Positions 3,786 to 24,000 of a stretch of DNA of 24,000 nucleotides are shown here, piece after piece. The notes beneath the pieces were generated by a model, which saw nothing but the letters and a program-made list of their open reading frames with translations, ran no database searches and was not told the DNA's origin. Where the stretch lies: the NCBI GenBank assembly GCA_035689345.1, contig DASSLR010000012.1, positions 33,065 through 57,064 on the forward strand. The letters are read 5' to 3'. The stretch's first letter is position 1. Every line of letters starts with the position of its first letter. The position numbers and the translations under genes were made by a program. Source of the stretch: Candidatus Dormiibacterota bacterium. GTDB lineage: Bacteria > Chloroflexota > Dormibacteria > Dormibacterales > Dormibacteraceae.

Positions 3786-4010
3786 CTACCTGGCGCCGGC
3801 CTTGCCTGCACCGCGCTTGCGCGCGCGCCGCACGATGGTGCTGCTGCCGAAGCCGGGGAAGAACGTGCTCTTGTGTCCGTCTTCCCAGCTCACCAGGTAG
3901 TGCACCGAGTCACCGGTGCCGAGGACCTCGATGATCTCGCCCTCGCGCGCTGGTGTGCCGACCCGCCCCGACTCGACGACCAGACGATCTCCGATCTCTC
4001 CTGTTGCCAT
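3786..4010 (-). CDS. DUF1918 domain protein (74 aa)
   Basis: GDRLVVESGRVGTPAREGEIIEVLGTGDSVHYLVSWEDGHKSTFFPG matches the actinobacterial DUF1918 pattern as I remember it. GGAGG lies upstream of the ATG at 4010. Confidence 0.8.
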   Translation of the reverse strand: MATGEIGDRLVVESGRVGTPAREGEIIEVLGTGDSVHYLVSWEDGHKSTFFPGFGSSTIVRRARKRGAGKAGAR

Positions 4011-4044
4011 CGCTCTGCACCTCCAGTTTCAACGGCCGCCGCTT

Positions 4045-4530: not shown

Positions 4531-4534
4531 GGGA

Positions 4535-4957
4535 TCAGCGGCCTTCAGCGGTGACCGCGGCAGGCTCGCTGAACGCGTATTTGAGCGTCGGCGGCTCCGT
4601 CAGCATCTTGCGTGCCGGGCACGCCACCATCGCCGCCTCCAGGAAACGATGGTCGCTGTCCGTGAGACCCGGCGGCGTTGAGATCGTCAGCTGAACGTGG
4701 TCGATGCGCCCGTTCTCGATGTCCCAGCTGAAGTCTGCCTCGACCGCGAAGGGCTCGAATGGCAGGCCCTCGTTGGACAGGTGCTTGACCCCCTCCTCGG
4801 CGGCACAGGCCGCCAGGCCCGCGACCATAAGCTCTGTCGGTGTCGGTCCCTCGTCTTCGCCTCCGATCGCGACCGGCTCGTCCGAGACGAGGCGATACCC
4901 GCGGATCTGAATGTCGAAAGACTCGCCGTACCTGTGCTTCACCGTGATTCTGGCCAT
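4535..4957 (-). CDS. OsmC/Ohr-family protein (peroxiredoxin-like)
   Basis: 140 aa with GEDEGPTPTELMVAGLAACAAE and a second Cys in AAMVACPARKML, the two-Cys OsmC pattern. Confidence 0.85.
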   Translation of the reverse strand: MARITVKHRYGESFDIQIRGYRLVSDEPVAIGGEDEGPTPTELMVAGLAACAAEEGVKHLSNEGLPFEPFAVEADFSWDIENGRIDHVQLTISTPPGLTDSDHRFLEAAMVACPARKMLTEPPTLKYAFSEPAAVTAEGR

Positions 4958-5069
4958 GGGTCAAGGGTGTGTCGCGGAGGCACCCCGCCGTAGGGCCGGT
5001 CGGCCTTGCCCGCGACGCCAATGGCCTCTACTGGCCTGGGTCGAGCGCCGCGAGACTCGGATTCGGGCC

Positions 5070-7325: not shown

Positions 7326-7337
7326 TCCTGCGCGACG

Positions 7338-7964
7338 TCAGGCGAGGAACTCCCACAGTGATCCGGCCAGGAACACGGGCACGGCCAGTGCGTAGACGTA
7401 CCCAGCGTCCTTGAGCGCCAGGGTCGGAACGCGCAGGCCGAGGATCGAGGGTAACGAGCGGTCGGCCCGGACTCGCCAGGCCGCCAGCCCCACGTACACG
7501 CCGGCGCCCATCGTCAGCACGTAGCCGATGAGCTGCAGCACGACCGTCACGAGGTAGTAGACGGCGCTCGAGGGCGATGCCAGGCGGCTCACGTGGTTTC
7601 GGTCGATCGAGACGACGCCGCCCACCCACCCGCGGTACGCGGCGATCGGAAACGGCCCGACGACAGACAGGCCGGTCACCGACGTAGGGATCGCACCCAG
7701 AACGAGGTTCGATCCGAAATCGAGCAGCGCAGCCTGCAGGCGATCGCCGTGGTTGTACGCGATGGTGATCGGGCTCGCCTGCCCGCCAGCCACCACCGCG
7801 TCGCGCTGCTCGAGCGCGACCGGCCATCCCGCCGAGGCAAGTCCGATTCCCAGGCCGACGAAGAGGAGGTAGGTCGCCGCGGACGCGAGGATCGGCCCGC
7901 GCGCGCGGCGAAGGGCGAGCCGAACGCGACGCAGGAAGCCCATTGTCTCTCGCCAAAGTCGCAC
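7338..7964 (-). CDS. Polytopic integral membrane protein (possibly SpoIIM/DUF95-like)
   Basis: 208 aa with a basic N-terminus (RRVRLALRRARG) and about 5 hydrophobic helices. The family assignment is only a resemblance. An alternative start is ATG 7943. Confidence 0.55.
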   Translation of the reverse strand: MRLWRETMGFLRRVRLALRRARGPILASAATYLLFVGLGIGLASAGWPVALEQRDAVVAGGQASPITIAYNHGDRLQAALLDFGSNLVLGAIPTSVTGLSVVGPFPIAAYRGWVGGVVSIDRNHVSRLASPSSAVYYLVTVVLQLIGYVLTMGAGVYVGLAAWRVRADRSLPSILGLRVPTLALKDAGYVYALAVPVFLAGSLWEFLA

Positions 7965-8073
7965 CCGGTCGATGTCGCCCGTAGTGCCTTCCGGCCCGCG
8001 TCTTCGGGGCCGGCCGCCGGTTGGCCCCCCGCCGCGCTCGCGTCAGAGTGGACACAGGAAGGAGGTTGGCAAA

Positions 8074-11505: not shown

Positions 11506-13209
11506 CTAGGTCACGTAGTCGGCGATGAGGACCAACCTGTAGCCGCGCTGCTGGATGTCCGCGATCACCTTCGGTAGCGCGTCTGCGTCGAGCGTCGACC
11601 CGTCGTTGGCGGCGCCGACGTGCATCAGCACTATCTCGCCGGGCTGCAGCGCGTTCAGCACTCGTTGCTCGACCGTGGCCGCTGACTGACCGTTGTTCCG
11701 GCCCTCCCAACCGAGCGTGTCGACGGTCCAGCGGATGCCACCATAACCCAGGGCATGGGCATCGGCGAGAACGCGTGCGTCGGTGTTGCCGTATGGAAAG
11801 CGAAACAGGGGTCGAGGATCCTTGCCGGTGGCCGCCTGGATCACGGATTGCGCGTGCGATATCTGTTCGCGAACCTGGCTGTCGTTCAGGGTCGTCAGCC
11901 GCGGATGGTCATACGTGTGGTTGCCGATGCCATAGGAATCCGCGATCGTGCGCGCGTCCTTGGGGTAGACCTCGGTCCATCGTCCGGTGAGGAAGAACGT
12001 CGCCGGAACTCCGGCGGCTTTCAAAGCCGCGAGTATCGGAGCCACTCCGGCGTTGTTGCCACCCGCGTCGAAGGTCAGGGCGACGACCTTGTCCGTGGTC
12101 GGCAGCTTCGACCATTCGCCCCCGGCGAGTGACTTCGGAACACCTGGCGGAGTCGGGCTCGGCGTTGGCGGCGCGGCCGGCAGAAGCCTGCGGGCGCCGG
12201 AGTAATCGCCGATGGTGGGCATGGAGGCGAGCGCCACCTCTTCCACGGCGTAACCGGGTGAAGGCGAGTCGATGACCATGCCGTTGCCCACGTACATGGC
12301 CACGTGGTACGCGCTGCCGGCCGACGAGAAGAAAACGAGGTCGCCGGGTTGCAGGTTCTGCCGCGACACCGGCGTGCCGAACCCTGACTGAGGGTCGGAG
12401 TCGCGCGGGATCGCGATCCCGTACGTCGCGTACAGGAGGTGCACCAGGCCCGAGCAGTCGAATCCGAACCCCGACGTCCCACCCCACAGGTAAGGAAGGC
12501 CCTTGAACTGGCGCGCGCTGGCGATGACCGCCGCCGCATTGACCGAGCGGACGCCCCGGCCGACCGCCGACGCGTCGACCGTCATCACCGCACCCCCGGG
12601 CAGCCCGACCCGGTAAGAGGCGCTGGACCCATCGAGAAGAGGAAGCGTGGTGCCGAAGCTCACCTCGATCGCCGTGCCTGCGCCCCTCAGCCATGCGGTG
12701 GCGCTCGTCACGGTCACGGTCTCGCTCGCGTCCGGCGGCGGCGCCGCGGTCAGCTGGCGCACTGGAATCCAGGCCGGGTATCCGCGGGAATCCAGCGGCG
12801 TCGACTGTTCGGGCACCACCACCTGCGCCCAGCTGCCGGCGACCTTCAGCACGAGGACCTCGTCCCCGAGGAGAACCTGCGTGTCGAGGCGGTCGATCAA
12901 TCCGACCTTGTCGGCCGCGCTCATCGTGGCGAGCCACGATCGGATCTGGGCGGGATTCTGCAACGCGGGAGCGTCGACGGCCCGGGGTGCCTGTGGCGAG
13001 CGCCAGCCGGAAGCCACGCTCACCGCCACCCACGCGGGTGCCCCGGCCTTCACCTCGGGCGACGGGCTCGGTGCGGGCGACGAAGGTTGCGCCGAGGGCG
13101 AAGCGAAAGCGGAAGGCGAGCTGCCTCCGACCGGAGGCCGGCTGCCGCACGCGGCGAGCGCCAACATCAAGAAGACGGCGCCGATCAGACGCAATCCGCC
13201 TCGTCGCAC
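11506..13209 (-). CDS. Secreted lipoprotein fusing SH3b-like repeats, an NlpC/P60 peptidoglycan endopeptidase and a NodB-type polysaccharide deacetylase
   Basis: I use the GTG start at 13209, which gives the signal/lipobox RRGGLRLIGAVFLMLALAACGS. NlpC/P60: YLWGGTSGFGFDCSGLVHLLY...YHVAMYVGNGMVID. NodB: ALTFDAGGN, NHTYDH, RFPYG, LMHVG. The track's upstream extension to 13572 is Arg/Gln-rich and crosses a + strand terminator. Confidence 0.9.
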   Translation of the reverse strand: MRRGGLRLIGAVFLMLALAACGSRPPVGGSSPSAFASPSAQPSSPAPSPSPEVKAGAPAWVAVSVASGWRSPQAPRAVDAPALQNPAQIRSWLATMSAADKVGLIDRLDTQVLLGDEVLVLKVAGSWAQVVVPEQSTPLDSRGYPAWIPVRQLTAAPPPDASETVTVTSATAWLRGAGTAIEVSFGTTLPLLDGSSASYRVGLPGGAVMTVDASAVGRGVRSVNAAAVIASARQFKGLPYLWGGTSGFGFDCSGLVHLLYATYGIAIPRDSDPQSGFGTPVSRQNLQPGDLVFFSSAGSAYHVAMYVGNGMVIDSPSPGYAVEEVALASMPTIGDYSGARRLLPAAPPTPSPTPPGVPKSLAGGEWSKLPTTDKVVALTFDAGGNNAGVAPILAALKAAGVPATFFLTGRWTEVYPKDARTIADSYGIGNHTYDHPRLTTLNDSQVREQISHAQSVIQAATGKDPRPLFRFPYGNTDARVLADAHALGYGGIRWTVDTLGWEGRNNGQSAATVEQRVLNALQPGEIVLMHVGAANDGSTLDADALPKVIADIQQRGYRLVLIADYVT

Positions 13210-13329
13210 AACCCAATGGTTCGTGCGTGGCCGGCGGTGCGGGAGGGCCGCTCGACACCGTTTTCTCCGGCCGCCCGACCCTTGGACCGCCTGCTGCCTG
13301 GGACCACGCTTACGCCAGAGGTGATCGAA

Positions 13330-13536
13330 ATGACGGCACTTTTGCTGGCGGGCTACGTTCCCGCACCGCTGCCGGCCGCCACCGGAAGCAGCGATCCATG
13401 GGGCATCGCTCTCGTGGTCGGCAGCGTCCTGGCTCTGGCGGTCGCCATCACCGTGGCGCTCGTCTACTTCAACCGGCCCGCCCCGAAGCGGGTGGAGAAG
13501 GCAGCTCCAATCGAGCACTTGCGGAAGGCCGCCTGA
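13330..13536 (+). CDS. Small single-pass membrane protein (68 aa), not listed separately in the ORF track
   Basis: GAGGTG SD at 18-23 (13318-13323) sits 6 nt before ATG 13330. The TM segment is WGIALVVGSVLALAVAITVALVYF, followed by a basic tail. About 84 % GC at third codon positions by hand count. A strong intrinsic terminator starts 23 nt after the stop. Confidence 0.5.
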   Translation: MTALLLAGYVPAPLPAATGSSDPWGIALVVGSVLALAVAITVALVYFNRPAPKRVEKAAPIEHLRKAA

Positions 13537-13558
13537 TACCAGGCAAGCGGATACGAAG

Positions 13559-13593
13559 GGGGAGCGCCACATGCGCTCCCCTCTCGTTTTGTT
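13559..13593 (+). terminator. Rho-independent terminator
   Basis: GGGGAGCGC (13559-13567), loop CACAT, GCGCTCCCC (13573-13581), followed by TCTCGTTTTGTT. Confidence 0.7.
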
Positions 13594-13669: not shown

Positions 13670-13960
13670 ATGGATCGCAAGAGGCGCGTCCTGGTTGCCT
13701 GTGGAACGGCGATCGCCACTTCCACCCATGTGGCCAACCGGCTGGAGCGTGAATTCGCGGCTCGCGGTCTCGACATCGCCATCACTCAGTGCCGCGTGGC
13801 CGAGGTGCCATCGCACGTGGGAGATGTCGACGTGGTCGTGACGACGGCGCCTATGGCGCCCGTCGATTCACTGCCGATCGTGAGCGGGATCCCGTTCCTC
13901 ACCGGCATCGGCGAAGACGAAGCCTTGAAGCAAATCCTCGAAGCGGTTGAAGGAGGTTAA
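13670..13960 (+). CDS. PTS EIIB component, galactitol family (GatB/SgcB-like)
   Basis: 96 aa. RRVLVACGTAIATSTHVANRLE...ITQCRVAEV...PIVSGIPFLTGIGEDEALKQILEAV is collinear with E. coli GatB as I recall it, with the active-site Cys in VACG. Confidence 0.9.
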   Translation: MDRKRRVLVACGTAIATSTHVANRLEREFAARGLDIAITQCRVAEVPSHVGDVDVVVTTAPMAPVDSLPIVSGIPFLTGIGEDEALKQILEAVEGG

Positions 13961-13969
13961 CGCGAGGAA

Positions 13970-15397
13970 ATGGACTGGGATTCGATAGTGACGTTCGTTC
14001 GGGACCAGCTGGGCAACACCGTCGTCTTGCCCATCGTCATCGCCGCGCTCGGTATCGCGCTCGGTCAGCGATGGCCGAAGGCGATTCGCTCTGGCCTGAC
14101 GGTCGGTGTGGGCTTCGTCGGCCTGGGGCTGGTCATCACGCTTCTGTTGGGTGCGCTGGGCCCCGCCACCGACGCGATCGTTTCGCGGTTTGGGCTGCAC
14201 CTGACCACGATGGACGTAGGCTGGCCGGTGGCGGCCGCAATCGCGTTCGGCACGACGGTCGGTGCGTTGATCATCCCGTTGGCGCTCGGCGTCAACGTGG
14301 CGATGCTGCTGACGCGACTGACCAAGACCCTCAACGTCGACATCTGGAACTTCTGGCACTTCGCCTTCACCGGGTCGCTGGTGTACCTGGTGACCGGGCG
14401 CAACATCTGGGCCGGCTTGATCGCAGCCGCCGTCCACGCCGTCATCTCGCTGAAGGTGGCGGACATCACCGCTCCGGCGATCCAGAAGTTCTTCAACCTG
14501 CCTGGTGTCTCGATTCCGCAGGGCTTCGCCGTCACCACGGTGCCGGTCGTCCTCGCCTTCAACTGGGTGCTCGACCGCATCCCGTTCGTCAAGGACATCA
14601 AGATCGACTCCGCGACCCTGCAGAAGAGGCTGGGCGTCCTCGGCGAGCCCTTGATCCTGGGCGTGATCCTCGGCGTCTTCTTCGGCCTCGTCGCCGGATA
14701 CGACTTCCCGAAGACCGCCGTACTGTCCGTGCAGCTTGGTGCGGTGATGCTGCTCGTGCCGCGCATCATCGGCATCTTCATGGAAGGCCTTGTGCCCGTC
14801 TCGGAGGCGGCGCGCGTCTTCTTCCAGAAGCACTTCCACGGCCGTGAGTACTACGTCGGTCTGGACTCCGCCATCCTGATCGGGCACCCGATCACCATCG
14901 CGGCGGCGATCCTGCTGATCCCGACTGTGCTGCTCCTGGCCGCCATCCTTCCCGGCAACACGACCCTGCCGTTCGCGGACCTCGCGGCGCTCGCGTTCTT
15001 CGTGGCGATGGCGACACCGCTCACCAAGGGCAACCTGTTCCGCACGTACGTGATCGGCGCTTTCACCATGGTCATGGTCCTGTACCTGACCACGTTCTTC
15101 GGACCGAACCTGACGCAGACGGCGTCGGATATCGGTTTCAAGCTGCCCTCGACCGTCGCGGCCGGTGCCACCATCAGCGCGCTCTCGGGCGGCAACCTCT
15201 ACGCGTTCATCAACTACATCTCGGCGCAGTGGCTCGGCATCTTCGGCCCGATCGCGCTGCTGCTGATCGTCGGCGCAGGCGCGTACCTGCTGCGCAACTA
15301 CACGTACAGCCCCAAGGAGGCTCCGACCGCTCCGCCGGCGGCTGAGGCTCCGAAGCCGACTGTCCTGCCACCGACCGCGAGGCCGGTGACCACCTGA
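13970..15397 (+). CDS. PTS EIIC component, galactitol family (GatC/SgcC-like), with a Pro/Ala-rich C-terminal tail
   Basis: 475 aa. VLPIVIAALGIALG, GVGFVGLGLVI, NVAMLLTRLTKTLNVDIWNFWHFAFTG, LVPRIIGIFMEGLVPVSEAAR, LPFADLAALAFFVAMA and GNLFRT parallel E. coli GatC. Confidence 0.95.
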   Translation: MDWDSIVTFVRDQLGNTVVLPIVIAALGIALGQRWPKAIRSGLTVGVGFVGLGLVITLLLGALGPATDAIVSRFGLHLTTMDVGWPVAAAIAFGTTVGALIIPLALGVNVAMLLTRLTKTLNVDIWNFWHFAFTGSLVYLVTGRNIWAGLIAAAVHAVISLKVADITAPAIQKFFNLPGVSIPQGFAVTTVPVVLAFNWVLDRIPFVKDIKIDSATLQKRLGVLGEPLILGVILGVFFGLVAGYDFPKTAVLSVQLGAVMLLVPRIIGIFMEGLVPVSEAARVFFQKHFHGREYYVGLDSAILIGHPITIAAAILLIPTVLLLAAILPGNTTLPFADLAALAFFVAMATPLTKGNLFRTYVIGAFTMVMVLYLTTFFGPNLTQTASDIGFKLPSTVAAGATISALSGGNLYAFINYISAQWLGIFGPIALLLIVGAGAYLLRNYTYSPKEAPTAPPAAEAPKPTVLPPTARPVTT

Positions 15398-15456: not shown

Positions 15457-16596
15457 ATGGCAGCGACGACCACGGCGAAGTCCACAAGAAGCATCGTGCC
15501 TATGCTGGAGCGTCTTTCGGCCATCGCCGCGCCCTCGGGCAACGAGGACCGCGTGATCGCGGCGGTCGTGGCACATGCCGAGGCCTGCGGGTTCTCGCCG
15601 GTCGTCGACAATATCGGCAACGTCGTTGTCCCGGTCGCGGAGGGAGCTGCCGGCTCGCCGCTGGTCTTCGCGCACCTCGACGAGCTCGGTCTCACCGTCA
15701 GGTCGATCGACGGCGACGGATTCGTCGGCGTGGAGCGTTTGGGCGGAGTGCCCGAGAGAGTGCTTCCCGGGCTCAAGATGCTCATCCACACCCGAGCCGC
15801 GGACATACCCGCGATCGTCGGCCTCAAGGCCCACCACCTCACGCCCGCCGGAGAGAAGTACGTGGTCCGGCCGGCCGAGGAGCTCTACCTCGACGCCGGA
15901 TTCCCCAGCAGGGCGGCGGCCCACGAGGCGGGCATCCGGGTAGGCGACCCGATCACCTACTCGCCGTCCTTCACGCATCTGGCCGGCGGACTGGTCAGCG
16001 GTAAGTCGTTCGACGACCGGCTGGCGGTCGCCGCGCTGCTGATGCTGCTCGACTCTTTCGCCGAATCACCCCCCGACCGCGGCGTGCTGGTCGCATTCAC
16101 CGTGCAGGAGGAGTTCAACGTCCGGGGTTCGCTCGCCATCGCGCAGCGGTGGCGGCCAGGCATCGCCGTGCAGGTCGATGTCGCGCCGGCGTGCGACACG
16201 CCCGACCTGGCCGGTCGCGATCCGGTGAGGCTCGGCGGCGGGCCGGTGCTGACGCGCCTGAGTTTCCACGGGCGAGGAACTCTCGGCGGCCTGGTGCCCC
16301 ATCCTGCGCTGCTGCGGGCGCTCGAGGAAGCTGCTGCCGCGGCGGAGGTGCCGGTCCAGTACCAGTCGATCGTCGGCCTCATCACCGACGCGGCTTTTCT
16401 TCCGATGGCGACCGGTGACGGCATCGCCGCCGCCGAGGTTGGGATCCCGTGCCGCTACACGCACAGCCCGATCGAGACTGCCGATCCGCGAGACGCGGAG
16501 CTCATGGTCCGGCTGCTCGAACGATTCATCAGAGCCCACGCGAACATCGACATGCGCCGCGGCCGGCCGCTGGCGAAGCAAGGAGGAATGTCGTGA
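15457..16596 (+). CDS. M42-family metallopeptidase/cellulase-like protein (FrvX/SgcX-like)
   Basis: MLERLSAIAAPSGNEDRV, FAHLDELGL, GKSFDDRLAVAAL, FTVQEEFNVRGS, IPCRYTHSP. GGGAG at 15444-15448 is 8 nt from ATG 15457; the track's ATG at 15451 is only 2 nt from that SD. Confidence 0.9.
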   Translation: MAATTTAKSTRSIVPMLERLSAIAAPSGNEDRVIAAVVAHAEACGFSPVVDNIGNVVVPVAEGAAGSPLVFAHLDELGLTVRSIDGDGFVGVERLGGVPERVLPGLKMLIHTRAADIPAIVGLKAHHLTPAGEKYVVRPAEELYLDAGFPSRAAAHEAGIRVGDPITYSPSFTHLAGGLVSGKSFDDRLAVAALLMLLDSFAESPPDRGVLVAFTVQEEFNVRGSLAIAQRWRPGIAVQVDVAPACDTPDLAGRDPVRLGGGPVLTRLSFHGRGTLGGLVPHPALLRALEEAAAAAEVPVQYQSIVGLITDAAFLPMATGDGIAAAEVGIPCRYTHSPIETADPRDAELMVRLLERFIRAHANIDMRRGRPLAKQGGMS

Positions 16597-17435
16597 ACGC
16601 GATCGAGGAGATCTTTGGCAAGTCGAAGGCCATCATCGCGATGGCGCACTTCCCACCTTTGCCCGGACAACCGCTGTACGACGCGTCAGGCGGCCTGGCG
16701 AAGATTCGCGAGGTCGTCAGCGACGACGTCGACCGGCTGGCGGCGGCCGGGGCGGACGGAATCCTGTTCTGCAACGAAGGCGACCGCCCCTACCGGGCGC
16801 ACGCCGGCCACGAAACAGTGGCCGTGATGTCGTCGGTCATCCAGGACGCGGCGCGTGGACTGCGCATTCCATTCGGTGCCGACGTCCTGTGGGACCCGCA
16901 GGCGGCGATCGCGATCGCGTTCGCGACCGGCGCACGATTCGTGCGCGAGGTGTTCACCGGGGTCTACTCGAGCGACTTCGGGATCTGGAACACTGACCCA
17001 GCCGGCGCGCTGCGCTTCCGGCGTGAGCTCGGCGCTTCCGACTTGCGCTGCTTCTACAACATCACGGCGGAGTTCGCGTCGCCGCTGGCCGCTCGACCCA
17101 TCGAGCTGACAGCTCGCTCCGCGGTGTTCTCGTCGCTGGCCGACGCCATCTGCGTCTCGGGCAGCCTGACCGGCACCGCTCCCGACATCGACGTCGTGGC
17201 GGCGGTCAAGCGCGCGGTTCCCGACACCGCGGTCATCGTGAACACCGGCGTGCGCGCGGACACGGTCGGCAAATTTCTCAACGCCGCCGACGCCGTCATC
17301 GTCGGCACCGCGTTGAAGCGTGACGGCGTGACGTGGAATCCGGTGGATGCCGACCGCGCCAAGAGCTTCATCGCCGCCGCGGCGGGCACAGGAGTCTGGA
17401 GTCCCGGTCCCGCGCGCACGCCCGCCATGGTGTAG
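16593..17435 (+). CDS. BtpA-family TIM-barrel protein (SgcQ-like)
   Basis: AGGAGG at 16581-16586 sits 6 nt before GTG 16593, which overlaps the M42 stop (GTGA). AIIAMAHFPPLPGQPLYD, GADGILFCNEGDRPY, FGADVLWDP, ICVSGSLTGTAPD and VIVGTALKRDG match the BtpA/SgcQ pattern. Confidence 0.85.
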   Translation: MNAIEEIFGKSKAIIAMAHFPPLPGQPLYDASGGLAKIREVVSDDVDRLAAAGADGILFCNEGDRPYRAHAGHETVAVMSSVIQDAARGLRIPFGADVLWDPQAAIAIAFATGARFVREVFTGVYSSDFGIWNTDPAGALRFRRELGASDLRCFYNITAEFASPLAARPIELTARSAVFSSLADAICVSGSLTGTAPDIDVVAAVKRAVPDTAVIVNTGVRADTVGKFLNAADAVIVGTALKRDGVTWNPVDADRAKSFIAAAAGTGVWSPGPARTPAMV

Positions 17436-17437: not shown

Positions 17438-18091
17438 ATGCGCGTGGCGGTCTCGCTGGCGTCGGCCGATCCGCTGCGGATCGCGGAAGCCGCCGAGCGC
17501 GCCGCCACCGCGGGCGCAAGCGCTCTGCACGTCGATTTCGGCGACGGCCGGTTCGTGCCGTGGCTTGGCGGCGGGGTTGAGCTCGTGGCGGCGCTGGTCC
17601 GGCTGGCGGCCATTCCGGTCGACGTCCATCTGATGGTGGAGGAGCCTGAGCCCTACTTCGCTCCTCTGGCGGCGGCCGGCGCGACCTCCGTCGTCGCGCA
17701 CATCGAACGCGCGCCGTATCCATGGCGACTCCGCGCGCTCGCTCATCGCTCCGGCATGCAGTTCGGGTTGGCGTTGAACCCGGCGACGCCGATAAGCGAC
17801 CTGGAGCCGGTGATCAGCTGCGCCGACTACTTAGTACTGCTCACCACGGAGCCCGACGGAGCGGGCGAGCTCATGCTGCCGAACACGCTGGAGCGCGTCC
17901 AGGCCGCGCGAGCTCTCATCGGCCCCGATCGCGCGCTCGAGATCGACGGCGGCGTGACCGGTGAATCCCTCACCTGGCCCATGAGGGCCGCGGTAGACCG
18001 TCTCGTCGTCGGTCGGGCGGTGCTCGACTCAGCGGAGCCGGCAATCCTGATCGCACATCTCGCGTCCGGCAACGGGGTCGGGGTGCGATGA
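17438..18091 (+). CDS. Divergent ribulose-phosphate 3-epimerase family protein (SgcE-like)
   Basis: ATG lies 2 nt after the BtpA stop. SLASADPL, LHVDFGDGRFVP, VDVHLMV, LNPATP, LLTTEPDGAGE, EIDGGV, VVGRAV. The Rpe metal ligands (H, D, H, D) appear conserved, but the phosphate-loop region is altered. Confidence 0.8.
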   Translation: MRVAVSLASADPLRIAEAAERAATAGASALHVDFGDGRFVPWLGGGVELVAALVRLAAIPVDVHLMVEEPEPYFAPLAAAGATSVVAHIERAPYPWRLRALAHRSGMQFGLALNPATPISDLEPVISCADYLVLLTTEPDGAGELMLPNTLERVQAARALIGPDRALEIDGGVTGESLTWPMRAAVDRLVVGRAVLDSAEPAILIAHLASGNGVGVR

Positions 18092-18558
18092 GCGTCGCGG
18101 CGCCGTCGAGCCTGTACTGGTCGTCCGGGTTGGTGCGCCGGTTTTCGTCAGCGGACGGTCCAGAGGACGCGATAAGGCTCGTCGGCAACTTGCTCATCAA
18201 AGCGGGCGCAGCGACAGCCGCGCACGTCGAAGCTGCGGTGCGTCGCGAGGCGGAGTACCCGACCGGGCTCCCAGCGAGCGTGCCCTTCGCGCTCGCGCAC
18301 ACGGACGCGCCCGGGGCGCTGCGGCTGGCGGCTGCGGTCGGCATCTTCGAGCAACCGGTCGTGTTCCGCCGCATGGACCGGCCCTCGGAGATGCTGCCGG
18401 TGAGGCTGGTGGCGATGCTCACCGTGCCCAGGCGCCACATGCAGGCGGAGCTCCTCAGCAACCTGATCAAAGGGCTGGCCTCTCCGGGTGTGGCCGAGCA
18501 GCTGCTCGAAGCGCCGCCACCGGATGCCCTGCGGCTGCTGCGCGGGGTGACGGGATGA
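18088..18558 (+). CDS. PTS EIIA component, type 2 (mannitol/fructose/Gat family; SgcA/GatA-like)
   Basis: ATGA overlap with the epimerase stop. 156 aa with the phosphorylatable His in SVPFALAHTD and EAEYPTGLP upstream, typical of EIIA-2. Confidence 0.85.
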   Translation: MSVAAPSSLYWSSGLVRRFSSADGPEDAIRLVGNLLIKAGAATAAHVEAAVRREAEYPTGLPASVPFALAHTDAPGALRLAAAVGIFEQPVVFRRMDRPSEMLPVRLVAMLTVPRRHMQAELLSNLIKGLASPGVAEQLLEAPPPDALRLLRGVTG

Positions 18559-20186
18559 GCCCGGCGCGGGCAACCGTCCTGCGGGGGATAGCGGCCTCGC
18601 GCGGCGAGGCAGCGGGCCCTGTGTTCGTGGTGCGCGAGGGTCCGGCAGAGGGCGGTCGGGCGGCGGCCGATTTCGACTCCGCCGCCCAGGCGGTCGCGAT
18701 GCGCCTCGACGCGATCGCAGACCAGGCGACGTCCAGGCCCGAGGGGGCCGCGATCCTGCGGGCACAGGCGGCGATGGCGCGGGACCCGGTGCTGGCCGCG
18801 TCGGTTCGCGAGCGGCAGGGTCGAGGCGAAAACCTGGCCGCCGCCATCAAGTCCGCGACCGATGCATACGCGGACAGGCTCCTCGAGCTCGACGACGCGT
18901 ACCTTCGCCAGCGCGCGGCCGACGTGCGCGAGATCGGGCGCCTGCTCATCGCCGAAGCCGAAGGGGGAATCGGGTCGCGGCTCGGCGGCTTGCGCAGCCC
19001 GGCGGTGGTGGTCGCTCGCGACCTTTCACCGGCCGACACGTTGAGCGTCGCCGGCGACCTGCTCCTGGCCCTGGTCACCGAGGAGGGCGGGCTCACGTCA
19101 CACACCGCCATCGTGGCGCGCGAGCTCGGCATCCCGGCCGTGGTGGGACTGCAGGGCGCGGTGGCGGCCGCGGCGGGACACGCGGGTGTCCGGGTGGACG
19201 GAGACGCTGGCGAAGTCACGTTCATGGACAGCGCCGAGCCGCGGCAGGCCAGGTCGATGACGCGGCTGATCGACGCGGCGTCGGCCCCCGTGCCGGTCCT
19301 GGCGAACGCCGGCTCGGTCGAGGCCGCCACTTCCGCCGCCGCTCGCGGTGCGGCGGGCATCGGCCTGTTCAGGACCGAGTTCATGTTCATGGCCCAGCAC
19401 GGACCGATGTCCGAGGACGATCAGGCCGCGACCTACGCCCGGGTCTGCGATGCGCTGCCGGGCCGGGTGGTCGTGGTCCGCACGCTGGACGCAGGCGCTG
19501 ACAAGCCGCTACCGTTCCTGCCGCCGGCGACGGAAGCCAATCCTCAGCTGGGGCGTCGAGGCGTCCGCCTGTGGCTGGGCAACGAGGAGCTGTGCAGGCC
19601 GCAGGTGCGCGCGCTGCTCCGCTGCGCGGCGACGCATCCGCGGATGCAGGTGATGCTGCCGATGGTCGGCGCGCGTCCGGAGATGGTCGCGGCGCGGGCT
19701 CTCTTTGCGGCCGAGGCCGCAAGCCTCGGTGTGGGCGTTCCGGACATCGGGATGATGGTGGAAGTGCCCGCGGTGGCCGCGGCGCTAGAGGCATTCCAGG
19801 GCGTGACGGATTTCGTCAGTCTCGGCACCAACGATCTCACCCAGTACGCGGTGGCCGCGGACCGAGGAATGGATTGGCCGGACGATCTTGGAGTGTTCAA
19901 TCCCGGCGTGCTGCGCCTGATCGCGACCGTGATCGAGAGCGCCCGGCGCATGGCGATCGGGGCAGGCGCCTGCGGCGAGATGGCAGGCAGACCCGAAGGG
20001 GGCATCTTCCTGGTCGGGGTCGGAGCTACATCGCTGAGCATGACCGCCGACTCCATCCCGGCCGTGGTCGAGGCCACGAGCCGGTTGGGGGGCGAGCGCT
20101 GCGCCACCGCCGCTCGCGAGGCTTTGCAGGCGGACTCAGCGCGCGGCGCTCTTGCCGTCCTGAGGAGCGCCCTCGCCGAGGCCTGA
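18555..20186 (+). CDS. ptsI: Phosphoenolpyruvate-protein phosphotransferase (PTS Enzyme I)
   Basis: ATGA overlap with the EIIA stop. GGLTSHTAIVARELGIPAVVG carries the active His. GIGLFRTEFMF, VVRTLDAGADKP and SLGTNDLTQY are also present. Confidence 0.95.
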   Translation: MSPARATVLRGIAASRGEAAGPVFVVREGPAEGGRAAADFDSAAQAVAMRLDAIADQATSRPEGAAILRAQAAMARDPVLAASVRERQGRGENLAAAIKSATDAYADRLLELDDAYLRQRAADVREIGRLLIAEAEGGIGSRLGGLRSPAVVVARDLSPADTLSVAGDLLLALVTEEGGLTSHTAIVARELGIPAVVGLQGAVAAAAGHAGVRVDGDAGEVTFMDSAEPRQARSMTRLIDAASAPVPVLANAGSVEAATSAAARGAAGIGLFRTEFMFMAQHGPMSEDDQAATYARVCDALPGRVVVVRTLDAGADKPLPFLPPATEANPQLGRRGVRLWLGNEELCRPQVRALLRCAATHPRMQVMLPMVGARPEMVAARALFAAEAASLGVGVPDIGMMVEVPAVAAALEAFQGVTDFVSLGTNDLTQYAVAADRGMDWPDDLGVFNPGVLRLIATVIESARRMAIGAGACGEMAGRPEGGIFLVGVGATSLSMTADSIPAVVEATSRLGGERCATAAREALQADSARGALAVLRSALAEA

Positions 20187-20441
20187 GTCGATCGCGGCAG
20201 CGAGCTGTTCGAGGTCGTCGGCTTCGTCCTGCCCGTCGACCGTGACTTCGATCCGCTGGCCCTCGCTTGCTCCGAGCGTGAGCACCTCGAGGATGCTCTT
20301 GCCGTTCGCCCTGGTACCTGGCCGATCCAGGTTCTGGACGCGCACGTCAGAGCTCAGCCCCGCCGCCGTGCGCACGAACACGGTGGCGGGGCGCGCGTGG
20401 AGCCCTGATGCGTTCCGCAGCCGGAAGACCTGTGTTCTCAC
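20136..20441 (-). CDS. ptsH: Phosphocarrier protein HPr, with a C-terminal extension
   Basis: GTG start. NASGLHARPA is the His15 motif and ANGKSILEVLTLGA is the Ser46-type motif. At 101 aa it is longer than typical HPr, and its tail overlaps the ptsI 3' end by 51 nt. Confidence 0.9.
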   Translation of the reverse strand: MRTQVFRLRNASGLHARPATVFVRTAAGLSSDVRVQNLDRPGTRANGKSILEVLTLGASEGQRIEVTVDGQDEADDLEQLAAAIDSGLGEGAPQDGKSAAR

Positions 20442-20450: not shown

Positions 20451-21260
20451 CTACTTGAGCAGCCGCCCGCCGTCGACGATGACCAGCGAACCGGTCATGT
20501 AGTCGGACGCCGGCGACGCGAGGAATACGGCCACCTTGGCGATGTCGTCGGGGGTGCCGAAACGGCCGAGGGGCACCTGGCTGATGAACTGCTTCGTCAG
20601 CTGCTGCAGCTGCTCGGCGGTCATGCCCTGCATCGGCTTCGAGGCGCCTTCGGTGGTGATGCCGCCGGGCGCGATCGCGTTGACGGTCACGTTGTGCGGC
20701 GCCATCTCCAGGGCGAAGTTCTTGGTGAACATCAGCACGCCGCCCTTGGAAGCGTCGTACGCGGCGAGGCCCGGCATTGACGGATGGACCGAGTCGATCG
20801 ACGCAACGTTGACGATCTTGCCGCCGCGACCCTGCTTAACCATCTGCAGCCCAGCCGCCTTCGACATGAAGACGAGCCCGCGCAGGTTGACATCGATGAC
20901 GCGGTCGAAGAACTCGGGAGTCATCTCCAGCACCGGGCTGGTCGGGTAGATGCCCGCGTTGTTGACCAGGATGTCGATCGACCCGAGCTCGTCGACGACC
21001 CGCTGCACCGCCGCTGCGGCGGCGTCCGCGTCGGCGATGTCGAGCACCATTCCCCGCGCCTCGGCATCCAGCTTCGCCGCGGCCGGCTGCACGATGGGGC
21101 TGAGGTCGGCGAGCATCACCTTGGCGCCGGCTTCGACGAAGCGCTGCGCGATCCCATAGCCGATGCCCATGGCCGCTCCCGTGATGAGGGCGTTGCGGCC
21201 TTTCAATCCAAAGGGGCCCCAGCCTGTCGTTGGAGCCGCTTCTGCAATCGCGGTGACCAT
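20451..21260 (-). CDS. Short-chain dehydrogenase/reductase (classical SDR); candidate sugar/polyol-phosphate dehydrogenase
   Basis: AAGGAGG sits 8 nt before the ATG. ALITGAAMGIGYGIA is the TGxxxGxG motif; NNAG is present; S...YDASK is the catalytic triad/tetrad; PGGITT follows. Confidence 0.9.
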   Translation of the reverse strand: MVTAIAEAAPTTGWGPFGLKGRNALITGAAMGIGYGIAQRFVEAGAKVMLADLSPIVQPAAAKLDAEARGMVLDIADADAAAAAVQRVVDELGSIDILVNNAGIYPTSPVLEMTPEFFDRVIDVNLRGLVFMSKAAGLQMVKQGRGGKIVNVASIDSVHPSMPGLAAYDASKGGVLMFTKNFALEMAPHNVTVNAIAPGGITTEGASKPMQGMTAEQLQQLTKQFISQVPLGRFGTPDDIAKVAVFLASPASDYMTGSLVIVDGGRLLK

Positions 21261-21962: not shown

Positions 21963-23060
21963 TCAGGCGGTCGAGAGCACCCGCCGGACCTCGCGCGCGA
22001 CCTCAACGTCTTCCCGGGCGCGGACGACCAGCGTCCGGGCCTCGGCCTCCGTGGTGCTGATGTCGTGATCGCCAGTCGCATCCGCGTTCAAGTCAGGACT
22101 GATGTCGAGGCCAAGGAAACGCAGGCCGGACACGGCCCCGGCGCGGACGGCGGGCGCGTGCTCGCCGACTCCCCCTGTGAAGACGAGCGCGTCCAGGCCG
22201 TTCATGGCCGCGGCCATCGCGGCGATGCCGGCCCGGAGGCGGTGAAGGTAGACGTCGAGCGCGAGGCGTGAGCGCTTCACGCCTGCGCCCACGCCGCGCA
22301 GCACCTCGCGCATGTCTGCCACGCCGGCCAGCGCCAGAAGGCCCGACTTCGAGTCGAGCGTCTCGGTCAGCTGGGGCTCCGTCATTCCATGGCGTCGCTG
22401 CAGCCAGAGCACGATTCCCGGATCCACGCTTCCCGACCGCGTGGCCATGACCAGACCTTCCATCGGGGTGAAGCCCATGGTCGTGTCCACCGAGCGGCCT
22501 CCCAGCACGGCCGCGAGCGAAGCGCCTGCACCAAGGTGGCAGGTGACGGTGCGCAGCAGCTCCGCCGGCCGATCGAGCATCTCCGCCGCACGCCTCGACG
22601 CGTACGCGTGCGAGAACCCGTGGAACCCGAAGCGCCGCACGCCCAGCCGCGACTGCCACTCCAGCGGCACCGCGTAGGTGGAGGCCTCCGCGGGCATCGT
22701 CGAGTGAAAGGCGGTGTCGAAGCACGCCACCGCCGGCACTCGTGGAAGCAGTGTCCGCGTCGCCGCGATGCCGGCAAGCGAGGCGGGGAGGTGAAGGGGG
22801 GCGAGGTCGGTGATCGAGCCCAGGTAGTCGATGAGCTCCGGGTCGACCCGCACGGATTGCGGATATCGCGGCCCACCGTGAACCACACGGTGACCCACCG
22901 CATCGACGCCGGACATCACGCGCACCGCACCCTGCAGCTCGGACTCGTCGAACTCGCCGCCTTTCGCGTCGAAGTCGCGCTCGAAGAGGGTCGAGTCGTC
23001 TTCCTCGACCAGGCTCACCTTGAGGGAGCTCGAGCCGGCGTTGACTACGAGTACTTTCAG
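21963..23060 (-). CDS. ackA: Acetate kinase
   Basis: [66 protein letters not shown] and VFTGGVGEH are all present. No ATG, GTG or TTG is available for the N-terminus. The 5' boundary is set at CTG 23060, which overlaps the xfp stop. Confidence 0.85.
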
Positions 23061-24000
23061 TGCGGCCAGGTCCAGTTGAGAACGTCCGGCGCGTCCTGGC
23101 CGTGATCGCGCGTGTACTGGCGATGGCGCAGGCGCTCGTCCTCCATCCGCTGCCGCACATGCGCGGCATTCGAGCGAAGGCCCGGCACCCGGTCGATCAC
23201 GTCCATTACCAGGTGGAACCGGTCGAGGTCGTTGAGCATGACCATGTCGAAGGGAGTGGTCGTCGTCCCTTCCTCTTTGTATCCGCGGACATGGATGTTG
23301 TCGTGATTGGTGCGCCGGTACGTGAGGCGGTGGATGAGCCACGGGTAACCGTGGTAGGCGAAGATCACGGGGCGGTTGGTGGTGAAGAGGGCGTCGAACT
23401 CCGCGTCCGAAAGGCCGTGAGGATGCTCGCTGGCCGGCTGCAGGCGCATTAGGTCGACGACGTTGACCACGCGAACTTTGAGCGTGCCGAGGTGCTTGCG
23501 GATCAGGTCTGCCGCGGCGAGCGTCTCCAGGGTCGGGATGTCGCCCGCGCAAGCGAGCACGACGTCCGGGTCGCCACCTTCGTCGGTCGACGCCCAGTCC
23601 CAGACGCCGAGCCCGCGCGTGCAGTGCGCGATCGCCTCGTCCATGGACAGGTAGTTCAGAGCCGGCTGCTTGCCGGCCACGATCACGTTGACGTAGTTGC
23701 GGCTGCGCAGGCAGTGGTCGGTGATCGAGAGAAGCGTGTTGGCGTCGGGTGCCAGGTAAACGCGGATCACCTCCGCCTTCTTGTTGACTACGTGGTCGAT
23801 GAAGCCGGGATCCTGGTGAGTGAACCCGTTGTGGTCCTGGCGCCAGACGTGCGATGACAACAGGTAGTTGAGCGAGGCGATGGGTCGCCGCCACGGCAGC
23901 TGGCGCGTGACCTTCAACCACTTCGCGTGCTGGTTGAACATCGAGTCGACGATGTGCACGAAGGCCTCATAGCAGTTGAAGAGGCCGTGGCGACCCGTGA
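23057..24000 (-). CDS. xfp: Xylulose-5-phosphate/fructose-6-phosphate phosphoketolase, C-terminal ~313 aa; the 5' end lies outside the window
   Basis: The frame is open to the window edge ([29 protein letters not shown]...). [33 protein letters not shown] and the C-terminus DVLNWTWPH are present. The in-frame portion is 23057-23998. Confidence 0.95.

What the first reader, a model, noticed from the sequence alone, without database searches (positions are those of the whole stretch)
15457..17435. Two enzymes of unknown role (M42 SgcX-like and BtpA SgcQ-like) translationally coupled inside a sugar PTS operon
Seen: the M42 gene and the BtpA-family gene sit between EIIC and the epimerase. The BtpA GTG overlaps the M42 stop (GTGA), with a perfect AGGAGG 6 nt upstream.

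Established: M42 proteins are annotated as aminopeptidases or endoglucanases. BtpA was named for photosystem I biogenesis. Neither role makes obvious sense in a cytoplasmic sugar-phosphate pathway, yet both also accompany PTS genes in E. coli (SgcX/SgcQ; FrvX in the frv cluster).

Inference: the pairing is conserved between a proteobacterium and this high-GC organism. That argues the two proteins act on the PTS product, for example de-esterification/deacylation by the metallohydrolase and a TIM-barrel isomerase/aldolase-type step by BtpA. It argues against their nominal functions.
Basis: partly seen in the sequence, partly recalled or inferred. Interest (0 to 1): 0.65.

Follow-up and report, generated by a model that had tools for sequence, protein, structure and literature searches.

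The report
Actinobacterial sgc-like sugar PTS operon
This is a high-GC relative of the long-known but still unexplained E. coli sgc sugar-uptake operon; comparison with about 170 related loci shows its two odd enzymes (an M42 metallohydrolase and a BtpA/SgcQ TIM barrel) form a conserved coupled pair that travels with sugar transporters and sugar kinases, so they most likely work on a phosphorylated sugar.

Summary
**Observation: confirmed.** The M42 gene (15457-16596) and the BtpA/SgcQ gene (16593-17435) overlap by 4 nt (GTGA), with AGGAGG 6 nt upstream. They lie in a tight operon: IIB-IIC(Gat)-M42-BtpA-Rpe-like-IIA-EI.

**What it is.** The cluster is a homologue of E. coli sgcXBCQAER (IIC 47%, SgcQ 42%, SgcX 36% identity). 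The biochemistry of that operon was still unknown in 2026.

**What the related loci show.**
- The 4-nt M42/BtpA overlap recurs in 22 of 24 related loci.
- The pair occurs either with a Gat-type PTS (5 loci plus E. coli) or with a ribose-type ABC transporter plus a xylulokinase-like FGGY kinase.
- In another lineage the gene order is reversed (BtpA-M42-FGGY).
- Most BtpA loci have neither M42 nor PTS. They read DeoR-BtpA-FGGY kinase-SDR-ABC (FGGY in 63 of 80, M42 in 9, PTS in 1).

**Structure and sequence.**
- The BtpA model (pLDDT 96.7) is a phosphate-binding (β/α)8 barrel with no solved close relative.
- All M42 metal and catalytic residues are invariant.

**Verdict.** BtpA is probably a core sugar-phosphate-converting enzyme, and M42 an accessory hydrolase of one clade. 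The exact reactions and the substrate remain unknown. This is a new member of a known, uncharacterised kind, of moderate interest.

The parts
13558..13582 (.). 10-bp perfect inverted repeat (GGGGGAGCGC-CACAT-GCGCTCCCC) in the divergent intergenic region upstream of the operon. It could be an operator or a terminator-like hairpin.
   Evidence: and sequence. It overlaps the start codon of the divergent NlpC/P60-deacetylase gene. Its function was not tested.
13670..13960 (+). PTS EIIB (Lac/Cel-type IIB fold, SgcB/GatB-like). The ORF is open from 13571; the likely start is ATG 13670.
   Evidence: Pfam PTS_IIB 1e-09. 35% identity to E. coli SgcB. The VACG active-site Cys motif is present.
13970..15397 (+). 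PTS EIIC of the Gat family (SgcC-like)
   Evidence: Pfam EIIC-GAT 3.7e-81. TIGR00827 scores 467.8 bits, below the 542.2 cut-off. 47% identity to E. coli SgcC.
15457..16596 (+). SgcX-like M42 dinuclear metallohydrolase
   Evidence: Pfam Peptidase_M42 5.4e-64. 36% identity to SgcX. H73, D75, D186, E218, E219, D241 and H336 are invariant in 31 clade members including SgcX. Best solved relatives are MJ0555 (9qr6) and 4wwv.
16581..16586 (+). AGGAGG Shine-Dalgarno for the BtpA gene, inside the 3' end of the M42 gene
   Evidence: GGAGG-like motifs sit at the same place in most related loci.
16593..17435 (+). SgcQ-like BtpA-family (β/α)8 barrel. The GTG start overlaps the M42 stop (GTGA).
   Evidence: Pfam BtpA 1.9e-71. 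TIGR00259 scores 237.6 against a cut-off of 153.4. 42% identity to SgcQ. AF2 model pLDDT 96.7. Fold matches are to phosphate-binding barrels.
17438..18091 (+). SgcE-like ribulose-phosphate 3-epimerase family protein
   Evidence: Pfam Ribul_P_3_epim 1.7e-43. TIGR01163 scores 143.7, below the 212.6 cut-off. H31, D33, H64 and D170 are conserved.
18088..18558 (+). PTS EIIA (EIIA_2 type). Its start overlaps the epimerase stop.
   Evidence: Pfam PTS_EIIA_2 1.7e-16. Weak match to GatA.
18555..20186 (+). PTS Enzyme I (PEP-protein phosphotransferase). Its start overlaps the EIIA stop.
   Evidence: Pfam PEP-utilisers_N, PEP-utilizers and PEP-utilizers_C. TIGR01417 1.4e-97. The same position is occupied in L084 and L088.
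20136..20441 (-). HPr, convergent with EI and overlapping its 3' end by 51 nt
   Evidence: Pfam PTS-HPr 8.8e-25. GLHARPA His-15 motif. The same arrangement occurs in L084 and L088.
20451..21260 (-). SDR oxidoreductase directly upstream of HPr on the - strand. Whether it belongs to the pathway is uncertain.
   Evidence: Pfam adh_short_C2 1.1e-63. Only 36% identical to the SDR conserved next to BtpA/FGGY elsewhere. Absent from the PTS-type relatives L084 and L088.

Best explanation
The region is an actinobacterial version of the E. coli sgc operon: a self-contained carbohydrate uptake and catabolism unit.

**Shown**
- A complete dedicated phosphotransferase chain is encoded: EI, HPr, IIA, IIB and a Gat-family IIC.
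- Three soluble enzymes lie in the same operon: an SgcX-like M42 metallohydrolase, an SgcQ-like BtpA barrel and an SgcE-like epimerase.
- The M42 and BtpA genes are joined by a conserved 4-nt stop/start overlap with an internal Shine-Dalgarno.

**Inferred**
- The PTS imports and phosphorylates an unidentified small carbohydrate, probably of pentose, pentulose, polyol or hexitol size.
- The BtpA barrel holds the phosphate in its Gly-rich loops after β7 and β8. It uses conserved polar and acidic residues at the catalytic face (H19, N61/E62, D101, R118/E119, N156/E160) for an enolisation-type step on the sugar phosphate. That step would be isomerisation, epimerisation or aldol cleavage, probably metal-assisted.
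- The M42 enzyme, made in fixed proportion through translational coupling, hydrolyses an amide- or ester-linked feature of the same substrate or intermediate, not ordinary peptides.
- The epimerase then adjusts C3 of the resulting ketose phosphate so that it enters the pentose-phosphate pathway.

**Across the family**
- BtpA plus a phosphorylating step (FGGY kinase or PTS) is the invariant core.
- M42, SDR, Rpe and Dak/Zn-ADH are interchangeable accessories that adapt the core to different substrates.
For: **Gene content and orthology to sgc**
-.

**Complete PTS**
-.

**Coupling**
- The same 4-nt overlap occurs in 22 of 24 loci.

**Exchange of the uptake system around an unchanged M42-BtpA pair**
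- PTS-type loci: L083, L084, L088, L096.
- ABC plus FGGY-kinase loci: L082, L085-L087, L089, L168-L171.
- In the NJ tree the PTS type sits inside the block of M42-coupled BtpAs.
- The reversed order BtpA-M42-FGGY occurs in L154, L163 and L165.

**Family-wide context of BtpA**
- FGGY kinase directly downstream in 63 of 80 loci, SDR in 43 of 80, DeoR regulator in 55 of 80.
- The kinase is xylulokinase-like: TIGR01312 at 357 bits.

**BtpA fold**
- AF2 pLDDT is 96.7.
- Best PDB matches are PcrB/GGGPS, Rpe, KDPG/KDPGal aldolase, ThiE, HisF and TrpA.
- Profile hits to TrpA, GGGPS, OMPDC and CutC fall only in the β7-β8 phosphate loops.
- hhalign against the operon's own Rpe-like profile gives 72% probability, E 3e-5.
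- Conserved residues lie at the C-terminal ends of strands.

**M42 active site**
- It is invariant across the clade.

**Cluster partners in the ABC type**
- A Dak kinase and an AdhP/Ahr-like Zn-ADH are present. They are typical for handling an unphosphorylated triose or aldehyde fragment.
Against: - No substrate or activity is known for any BtpA/SgcQ or SgcX protein.
- E. coli Δsgc mutants showed no defect on 190 carbon sources. The operon responds to nitrogen-containing poor substrates instead of to a sugar (PMC13343008).
- No Lys conserved across the family is available for class I aldolase chemistry.
- BtpA lacks the His ligands of Rpe, so the reaction type cannot be read from homology.
- Characterised M42 enzymes are aminopeptidases. 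No non-peptide substrate is known for this family (own knowledge).
- The accessory genes differ between the PTS type (Rpe) and the ABC type (Dak, Zn-ADH, IMPase), so the two types may not share one substrate.
- Model coordinates could not be inspected, so the active-site geometry is inferred from secondary structure and conservation only.
Confidence: 0.55

Rival explanations
1. The M42 protein is an ordinary TET-type aminopeptidase. It sits in sugar operons for regulatory reasons, for example peptide scavenging when carbon is poor. It does not touch the transported sugar, and only BtpA and the epimerase belong to the sugar pathway.
For: - All canonical aminopeptidase residues are conserved.
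- The closest solved relatives are aminopeptidases.
- Most BtpA operons work without any M42.
- E. coli sgc is induced by nitrogen-containing, slow-growth substrates.
- E. coli YpdE, another PTS-linked M42, is reported to be a broad aminopeptidase (own knowledge).
Against: - The 4-nt overlap with BtpA holds in 22 of 24 loci across phyla.
- Adjacency is kept in both gene orders.
- Adjacency is kept through an exchange of transporter type.
- From the M42 side, 3 of 3 randomly chosen relatives have BtpA next door.
- Such tight linkage is unusual for a merely co-regulated housekeeping peptidase.
Confidence: 0.2
2. The substrate is a sugar-amino acid conjugate (a glycated or aminoacylated sugar or polyol). 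The M42 enzyme releases the amino acid from the phosphorylated conjugate by its normal aminopeptidase-like chemistry. BtpA and the epimerase then process the sugar phosphate. This is a specific version of the main model.
For: - The aminopeptidase-type active site is intact.
- E. coli sgc responds to nitrogen-containing substrates with predicted ammonium release.
- The M42 type lacks the SDR found in the M42-free type, which suggests a different kind of substrate.
Against: - There is no deglycase, amino acid transporter or amino acid catabolic gene in the clusters.
- The binding protein of the ABC type resembles monosaccharide binders such as RhaS and LsrB.
- This is speculation, with no direct evidence.
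Confidence: 0.12
3. BtpA/SgcQ is not an enzyme. It is an assembly or stability factor for membrane complexes, as proposed for cyanobacterial BtpA and photosystem I. Here it would serve the EIIC or the ABC permease.
For: - The family name and the cyanobacterial genetics point this way (own knowledge).
- A 2026 paper describes SgcQ as having 'PTS chaperone-like features'.
- A membrane transporter is encoded in nearly every BtpA locus.
Against: - The window protein scores 150.6 bits against a cut-off of 400 for the cyanobacterial BtpA equivalog.
- It is a soluble (β/α)8 barrel with the standard phosphate-binding loops and conserved polar residues at the catalytic face.
- Its most constant neighbour is a soluble sugar kinase, not any one transporter type.
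- The transporter classes vary between loci: PTS, CUT1 ABC, ribose-type ABC and APC permease.
Confidence: 0.07

Closest known systems
E. coli K-12 sgcXBCQAER operon (KpLE2 island)
   Same: The protein set is the same:
- Gat-family IIA/IIB/IIC: SgcC 47% and SgcB 35% identity
- M42 SgcX: 36% identity
- BtpA-family SgcQ: 42% identity
- Rpe-like SgcE: 30% identity

In both cases the function is unknown.
   Different: - The gene order differs. In E. coli sgcX comes first and is not adjacent to sgcQ. Here M42 and BtpA overlap.
- This locus adds its own EI and HPr.
- It lacks the DeoR regulator SgcR, which is present in relatives L083 and L096.
- E. coli SgcQ falls outside the clade of M42-overlapped BtpAs in the NJ tree.
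Galactitol PTS pathway (gatYZABCD) of E. coli
   Same: Both have a Gat-family IIA/IIB/IIC that delivers a phosphorylated polyol or sugar to cytoplasmic enzymes, ending in a TIM-barrel step (own knowledge for gat).
   Different: - There are no GatD, GatY or GatZ homologues here.
- The EIIC scores below the galactitol-specific cut-off (467.8 against 542.2).
- M42, BtpA and Rpe-like enzymes are present instead.
L-ascorbate (ula) operon logic: PTS plus a metallohydrolase (UlaG lactonase), a ribulose-phosphate-binding barrel (UlaD decarboxylase) and epimerases (UlaE/UlaF)
   Same: The architecture is the same: a PTS, then a metal-dependent hydrolase, then a phosphate-binding TIM barrel, then an epimerase leading to xylulose 5-phosphate. 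This resemblance comes from own knowledge and was not tested.
   Different: - The hydrolase here has the M42 (MH clan) fold, not the metallo-β-lactamase fold.
- BtpA is only remotely related to that barrel superfamily and lacks the KGPDC motifs.
- The epimerase is Rpe-type.
Cyanobacterial BtpA (photosystem I biogenesis/stability factor)
   Same: It belongs to the same Pfam/TIGR family, PF03437/TIGR00259.
   Different: - The window protein fails the cyanobacterial equivalog model (150.6 against 400 bits).
- The host is a non-photosynthetic, high-GC organism.
- The gene lies in a sugar operon.
TET/M42 aminopeptidases (PhTET1-3, TmPep1050, MJ0555, E. coli YpdE/FrvX)
   Same: Same family, with identical metal ligands and catalytic Glu. 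E. coli FrvX and YpdE are also encoded in PTS clusters (own knowledge).
   Different: - It scores far below every curated M42 equivalog cut-off.
- It is strictly linked to a BtpA gene.
- Its substrate is unknown.

Membership tests
sgc-type PTS operon (E. coli sgcXBCQAER) | Gat-family EIIA, EIIB and EIIC genes | tested here: met
   Pfam PTS_IIB, EIIC-GAT and PTS_EIIA_2. SgcC 47% and SgcB 35% identity. The IIA has no BLAST hit to SgcA below 1e-3 but belongs to the same Pfam family.
sgc-type PTS operon (E. coli sgcXBCQAER) | M42 (SgcX), BtpA-family (SgcQ) and Rpe-like (SgcE) genes in the same cluster | tested here: met
   BLASTP gives 36%, 42% and 30% identity, with E 8e-69, 2e-72 and 3e-30.
sgc-type PTS operon (E. 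coli sgcXBCQAER) | DeoR-family regulator SgcR adjacent | tested here: not met
   tblastn of SgcR against the window finds nothing. Relatives L083 and L096 do have one.
BtpA/SgcQ family (TIGR00259, PF03437) | Score above the curated family cut-off over the full length | tested here: met
   TIGR00259 scores 237.6 bits against 153.4. Pfam BtpA scores 240.9 bits, covering residues 11-264.
Photosystem I biogenesis protein BtpA (NF045918 equivalog) | Score above the equivalog cut-off | tested here: not met
   150.6 bits against a cut-off of 400.
M42 (TET) metallopeptidases | Family HMM match, the five metal ligands and the catalytic Glu | tested here: met
   PF05343 scores 216.5 bits. H73, D75, D186, E218/E219, D241 and H336 are invariant. 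They align to the same motifs in MJ0555.
M42 (TET) metallopeptidases | Aminopeptidase activity and dodecameric tetrahedral assembly | not testable with these tools
   This needs enzyme assays and a structure or SEC. No multimer prediction was available.
Ribulose-phosphate 3-epimerase (TIGR01163 equivalog) | Score above the equivalog cut-off | tested here: not met
   143.7 bits against 212.6. It is also below the SgcE-type PRK08005 and AlsE cut-offs. The family-level Pfam match and conserved H31, D33, H64 and D170 are present.
Galactitol-specific PTS (GatABC) | EIIC above the TIGR00827 cut-off, and IIA/IIB above the Gat equivalog cut-offs | tested here: not met
   EIIC 467.8 against 542.2, IIB 65.9 against 95, IIA 37.2 against 139. 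It belongs to the Gat family, but its specificity is not assigned.
Phosphate-binding (β/α)8 barrels (ribulose-phosphate-binding barrel group) | TIM-barrel fold with Gly-rich phosphate loops after β7 and β8; detectable homology to members | tested here: inconclusive
   - The fold and loops are present.
- Foldseek TM is only 0.5-0.6.
- HMM hits are confined to the C-terminal loops.
- hhalign against Rpe-like gives 72% probability.
- Coordinates could not be inspected for the ligand site.

The most novel reading that the evidence does not exclude
BtpA/SgcQ proteins of heterotrophs are a widespread family (about 2,570 clusters at 50% identity) of unrecognised sugar-phosphate enzymes: a new isomerase, epimerase or aldolase activity. 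They form the core of a modular catabolic pathway for a so far unidentified small carbohydrate. The SgcX-type M42 proteins bound to them would be the first members of the M42 'aminopeptidase' family to act on a non-peptide (sugar-derived) substrate, possibly in a physical complex with BtpA.
Probability: 0.35. Interest if true: 0.7.

Novelty: new member of a known kind. Interest (0 to 1): 0.45.

Why it matters
The sgc operon has been an annotated but unexplained PTS system in E. coli for about 30 years. A 2026 transcriptome atlas still lists its substrate and biochemistry as unknown.

The comparative picture obtained here does three things:
- It makes BtpA plus a phosphorylating step the constant core.
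- It makes M42 a tightly coupled accessory of one clade.
- It shows natural swaps between PTS and ABC-plus-kinase uptake.

Together these turn the puzzle into a testable one. The ABC-type homologues in cultured actinomycetes (Spongiactinospora rosea, Pseudonocardia acaciae) carry a soluble binding protein and an FGGY kinase. Both can be screened for ligands, which would reveal the substrate for the whole family, including E. coli sgc.

The results also argue that the 'photosystem I biogenesis' and 'endoglucanase/aminopeptidase' labels carried by thousands of genes are probably misleading in heterotrophs.

Tried and rejected
- **Sequence search of BtpA against the PDB:** no hit at E ≤ 1. The profile search found only the generic C-terminal phosphate-loop similarity. 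No solved family member exists to copy a function from.
- **Domain fusions of BtpA as a functional clue:** long representatives (P0126, P0222, P0204, P0240) carry no second Pfam domain. One DeoR-HTH fusion looks like a merged gene call.
- **Literature:** searches for SgcQ, BtpA family, PF03437, COG0434, TIGR00259 and M42 with PTS found no functional study. A search for tetritol-pathway enzymes (LerK/LerI/DerK) gave nothing usable. The idea that the Dak plus Zn-ADH genes mark an erythritol/threitol pathway was therefore left as untested speculation.
- **The adjacent SDR (20451-21260) as an orthologue of the SDR conserved next to BtpA/FGGY:** only 36% identical, and absent from the PTS-type relatives, so it is not claimed as part of the pathway.
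- **The divergent NlpC/P60-polysaccharide deacetylase gene as part of the system:** not conserved in relatives, so rejected.
- **Riboswitch or leader RNA upstream:** no Rfam match in the window. No sigma-70-type promoter was found by the simple scan.
- **Look-up of the window's own contig by exact protein:** not on record, so the organism was not identified beyond 'high-GC, probably Actinomycetota'.
- **Greedy ORF maps:** in high-GC loci these sometimes replaced real genes with antisense shadow ORFs. Counts quoted here therefore come from the cluster and tblastn tables.
Full report
**1. The observation**

The window has 68% G+C. On the + strand there is a compact gene row:

| Gene | Coordinates | Join to the next gene |
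|---|---|---|
| PTS IIB | ORF from 13571, likely start 13670, to 13960 | 9-nt gap |
| EIIC, Gat family | 13970-15397 | 53-59 nt gap |
| M42 metallopeptidase-family protein | 15451/15457-16596 | 4-nt overlap |
| BtpA-family protein | GTG 16593-17435 | 2-nt gap |
| Ribulose-phosphate 3-epimerase-family protein | 17438-18091 | 4-nt overlap |
| EIIA (EIIA_2 type) | 18088-18558 | 4-nt overlap |
| Enzyme I | 18555-20186 | - |

- The sequence AAGGAGGAATGTCGTGAAC places AGGAGG at 16581-16586, six bases before GTG 16593.
It overlaps the end of the EI gene by 51 nt and follows an SDR gene at 20451-21260.
- The locus therefore encodes a complete private phosphotransferase chain.

**2. What it corresponds to**

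I compared the window proteins with the annotated E. coli K-12 region by BLASTP.

| Window protein | E. coli protein | Identity |
|---|---|---|
| EIIC | SgcC | 47% |
| BtpA | SgcQ | 42% |
| M42 | SgcX | 36% |
| IIB | SgcB | 35% |
| Epimerase | SgcE | 30% |

- This is an sgc-type operon.
- Curated models place the proteins in their families but below every function-specific cut-off:
  - BtpA/SgcQ family: 237.6 against 153.4 (met).
  - Cyanobacterial BtpA: 150.6 against 400.
  - Rpe: 143.7 against 212.6.
  - Galactitol EIIC: 467.8 against 542.2.
  - All M42 equivalogs are far below their cut-offs.
- The literature held here shows that sgc is still unexplained:
  - It is called a PTS 'for an unknown sugar' (PMC5797941).
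[quoted passage not shown] It found no growth defect of Δsgc strains on 190 carbon sources, and reports induction on nitrogen-containing, slow-growth substrates (PMC13343008).
- No paper on the function of BtpA-family proteins outside cyanobacteria was found.

**3. Is the M42-BtpA pairing conserved, and with what?**

*BtpA side, genomes*
- A scan of one genome per species with a BtpA alignment confirmed 587 relatives. The best 80 loci were fetched.
- tblastn with the window and E. coli proteins found:
  - M42 in 9 of 80 loci, directly upstream of BtpA in 8.
  - PTS genes in only 1 (a Limnocylindrales MAG, L014 = L083).
  - A DeoR regulator next to BtpA in 55.
- Clustering all neighbouring ORFs and annotating representatives showed the dominant context:
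  - a xylulokinase-like FGGY kinase immediately downstream of BtpA in 63 of 80 loci;
  - an SDR in 43;
  - a CUT1-type ABC transporter in about 30;
  - an IMPase-family phosphatase in 12.

*BtpA side, metagenomes*
- A metagenome scan for close relatives gave the same split and added PTS-type loci.
- L084 and L088 have the same order as the window, including EI and convergent HPr. L096 also has a DeoR regulator.

*Called-gene tables*
- These define a second, commoner M42 type: [IMPase<] FGGY< DeoR< | M42 BtpA, a ribose-type binding protein, an ABC ATPase, two permeases, then often Dak1, Dak2 and an AdhP/Ahr-like Zn-ADH.

*M42 side*
- Three relatives chosen only for long contigs all had BtpA as the next gene.

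*Overlap, gene order and tree*
- The 4-nt A/GTGA overlap is present in 22 of 24 M42-BtpA loci, a few of which are duplicates of the same contig.
- In another lineage the order is BtpA-M42-FGGY, again abutting. The BtpA there is nearer to E. coli SgcQ (L154, L163, L165).
- In a neighbour-joining tree the M42-overlapped BtpAs form one block, with the PTS-type loci nested inside the ABC/FGGY type.

**4. What this says about function**

- The pair M42-BtpA is kept through an exchange of the uptake system.
- Across the whole family, the one constant partner of BtpA is an enzyme that phosphorylates a sugar: an FGGY kinase, or a PTS, which does transport and phosphorylation in one step.
- This is the strongest available argument that BtpA acts on a phosphorylated carbohydrate.
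- It also corrects that inference:
  - The association is not with the PTS as such. About 3% of sampled BtpA loci have one.
  - M42 is an accessory of particular clades, not a universal partner.
  - In this sample the M42-type loci lack the SDR that most M42-free loci carry. That suggests the accessory enzymes adapt a common core to different substrates.

**5. The proteins themselves**

*BtpA*
- The AlphaFold model built on 80 diverse sequences is very confident (pLDDT 96.7, pTM 0.93). It is a (β/α)8 barrel with an extra hairpin after β4.
- No solved structure is close (TM 0.5-0.6). The best matches are all phosphate-binding barrels: PcrB/GGGPS, Rpe, KDPG and KDPGal aldolases, thiamin-phosphate synthase, HisF and TrpA.
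- A profile search of the PDB hits only the β7-β8 phosphate-loop region of TrpA, GGGPS, OMPDC and CutC.
- hhalign against a profile of the operon's own Rpe-like protein gives 72% probability (E 3e-5) over β2-β8. BtpA carries Asn/Glu/Asp where Rpe has its His ligands.
- Residues conserved among close relatives and E. coli SgcQ sit at the C-terminal strand ends, the usual catalytic face: H19, N61, E62, D101, R118, E119, N156, E160, S189-G190, N217-T218-G219, G238-T239 and K242.
- H19, N61, R118, G190, G194, G219 and G238 are at least 90% conserved across the family.
- No Lys conserved across the family is available for Schiff-base chemistry.
- I therefore favour a metal-assisted enolisation-type reaction (isomerase, epimerase or aldolase) on a sugar phosphate. 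I cannot choose among these.
  - The Dak kinase and aldehyde-reductase-like ADH in the ABC type lean towards aldol cleavage that releases an unphosphorylated fragment.
  - The Rpe-like partner in the PTS type leans towards an epimerase/isomerase route.

*M42*
- The H-x-D, D, EE, D and H residues that bind the two metals and provide the catalytic Glu are invariant in 31 clade members, including E. coli SgcX. They align with those of solved TET aminopeptidases.
- It is therefore under selection as an active hydrolase, not a decayed scaffold.
- What it hydrolyses is unknown. An amide- or ester-linked group on the sugar, or a sugar-amino acid conjugate, are the readings most compatible with its chemistry and its linkage.

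**6. Rivals**

- M42 as a plain aminopeptidase that is only co-regulated. This fits its active site and the nitrogen-linked induction in E. coli. It fits poorly with overlap-level linkage maintained across phyla, gene orders and transporter types.
- BtpA as a membrane-complex assembly factor. This fits the family name. It does not fit the soluble phosphate-binding barrel, the conserved catalytic-face residues, or the fact that the transporter class varies while the kinase stays.
- A sugar-amino acid conjugate as substrate. This is a special case of the main model, with no direct support.

**7. Novelty and score**

- The feature is real and the pairing is conserved. However, it is a new member of a known, uncharacterised operon type (sgc), not a new kind of system.
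- Its value is as a well-posed 'known unknown'.
- The comparative data obtained here give a concrete experimental route. Use the binding protein and kinase of ABC-type homologues in cultured actinomycetes to find the ligand, then feed the phosphorylated product to BtpA and M42.
- Interest: 0.45.
- Most novel reading not excluded: a new sugar-phosphate enzyme family, plus the first non-peptide M42 substrate. Probability about 0.35, interest 0.7 if true.

Noticed in passing
window 20136-20441 (-): An HPr gene (GLHARPA motif) lies convergent to the operon. It overlaps the 3' end of the EI gene by 51 nt and sits 9 nt downstream of an SDR gene on the same strand. The same convergent EI/HPr overlap occurs in relatives L084 and L088. 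Convergent overlapping transcription of EI and HPr could matter for regulation.
   Followed up: partly
window 13558-13582: A perfect 10-bp inverted repeat (GGGGGAGCGC N5 GCGCTCCCC), followed by a T-rich run, lies in the divergent intergenic region. It overlaps the start codon of the NlpC/P60-deacetylase gene. It could be an operator or a bidirectional terminator-like hairpin. No regulator gene was found in the window.
   Followed up: no
window 11506-13572 (-): A 688-aa protein combines two SH3b domains, an NlpC/P60 peptidase domain and a polysaccharide deacetylase domain (a cell-wall hydrolase/deacetylase fusion). It is divergent from the PTS operon. It is not conserved next to the operon in relatives.
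   Followed up: partly
window 3263-6053 versus L084 1737-2285 and 9644-11159: In the closest relative (L084), the DinB_2/mycothiol-S-transferase-like, OsmC and PfkB-kinase genes directly flank the sgc-like operon. In the window they lie about 8 kb upstream. The intervening block holds a P-type ATPase, a BON-domain protein, a pyridoxamine-oxidase-like protein and the NlpC/P60 gene. This suggests an insertion or rearrangement. The PfkB kinase (69% identical between the two) may belong to the pathway.
   Followed up: partly
L010, L016, L018-L021, L025, L033-L035, L039, L075, L077, L078, L097-L102, L113-L115, L158-L160: A widely conserved operon, DeoR-BtpA-FGGY (xylulokinase-like)-SDR-CUT1 ABC transporter-IMPase-family phosphatase, occurs in Chloroflexota, Thermotogota, Bacillota and Actinomycetota. 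No study of BtpA-family function outside cyanobacteria turned up in the literature searches, so this operon is probably unstudied. A variant replaces the ABC transporter with an APC-family permease plus two conserved proteins that have no family match (clusters c16 and c24).
   Followed up: partly
L168/L169 3404-4222: A second BtpA paralogue sits next to a transposase gene, a few kb upstream of the M42-BtpA pair, in a metagenomic contig seen in several samples.
   Followed up: no
window 21963-23921 (-): The acetate/propionate kinase ORF is 652 aa as listed. The kinase domain starts only at residue ~335 and lacks the first ~78 profile positions. The N-terminal 330 residues have no family match. 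Possible causes are an over-extended ORF, a frameshift or a fusion.
   Followed up: no
window 6150-7325 (+), 7258-8055 (-), 3916-4554 (+): Long ORFs with no Pfam match. In a 68% G+C sequence some may be shadow ORFs.
   Followed up: no
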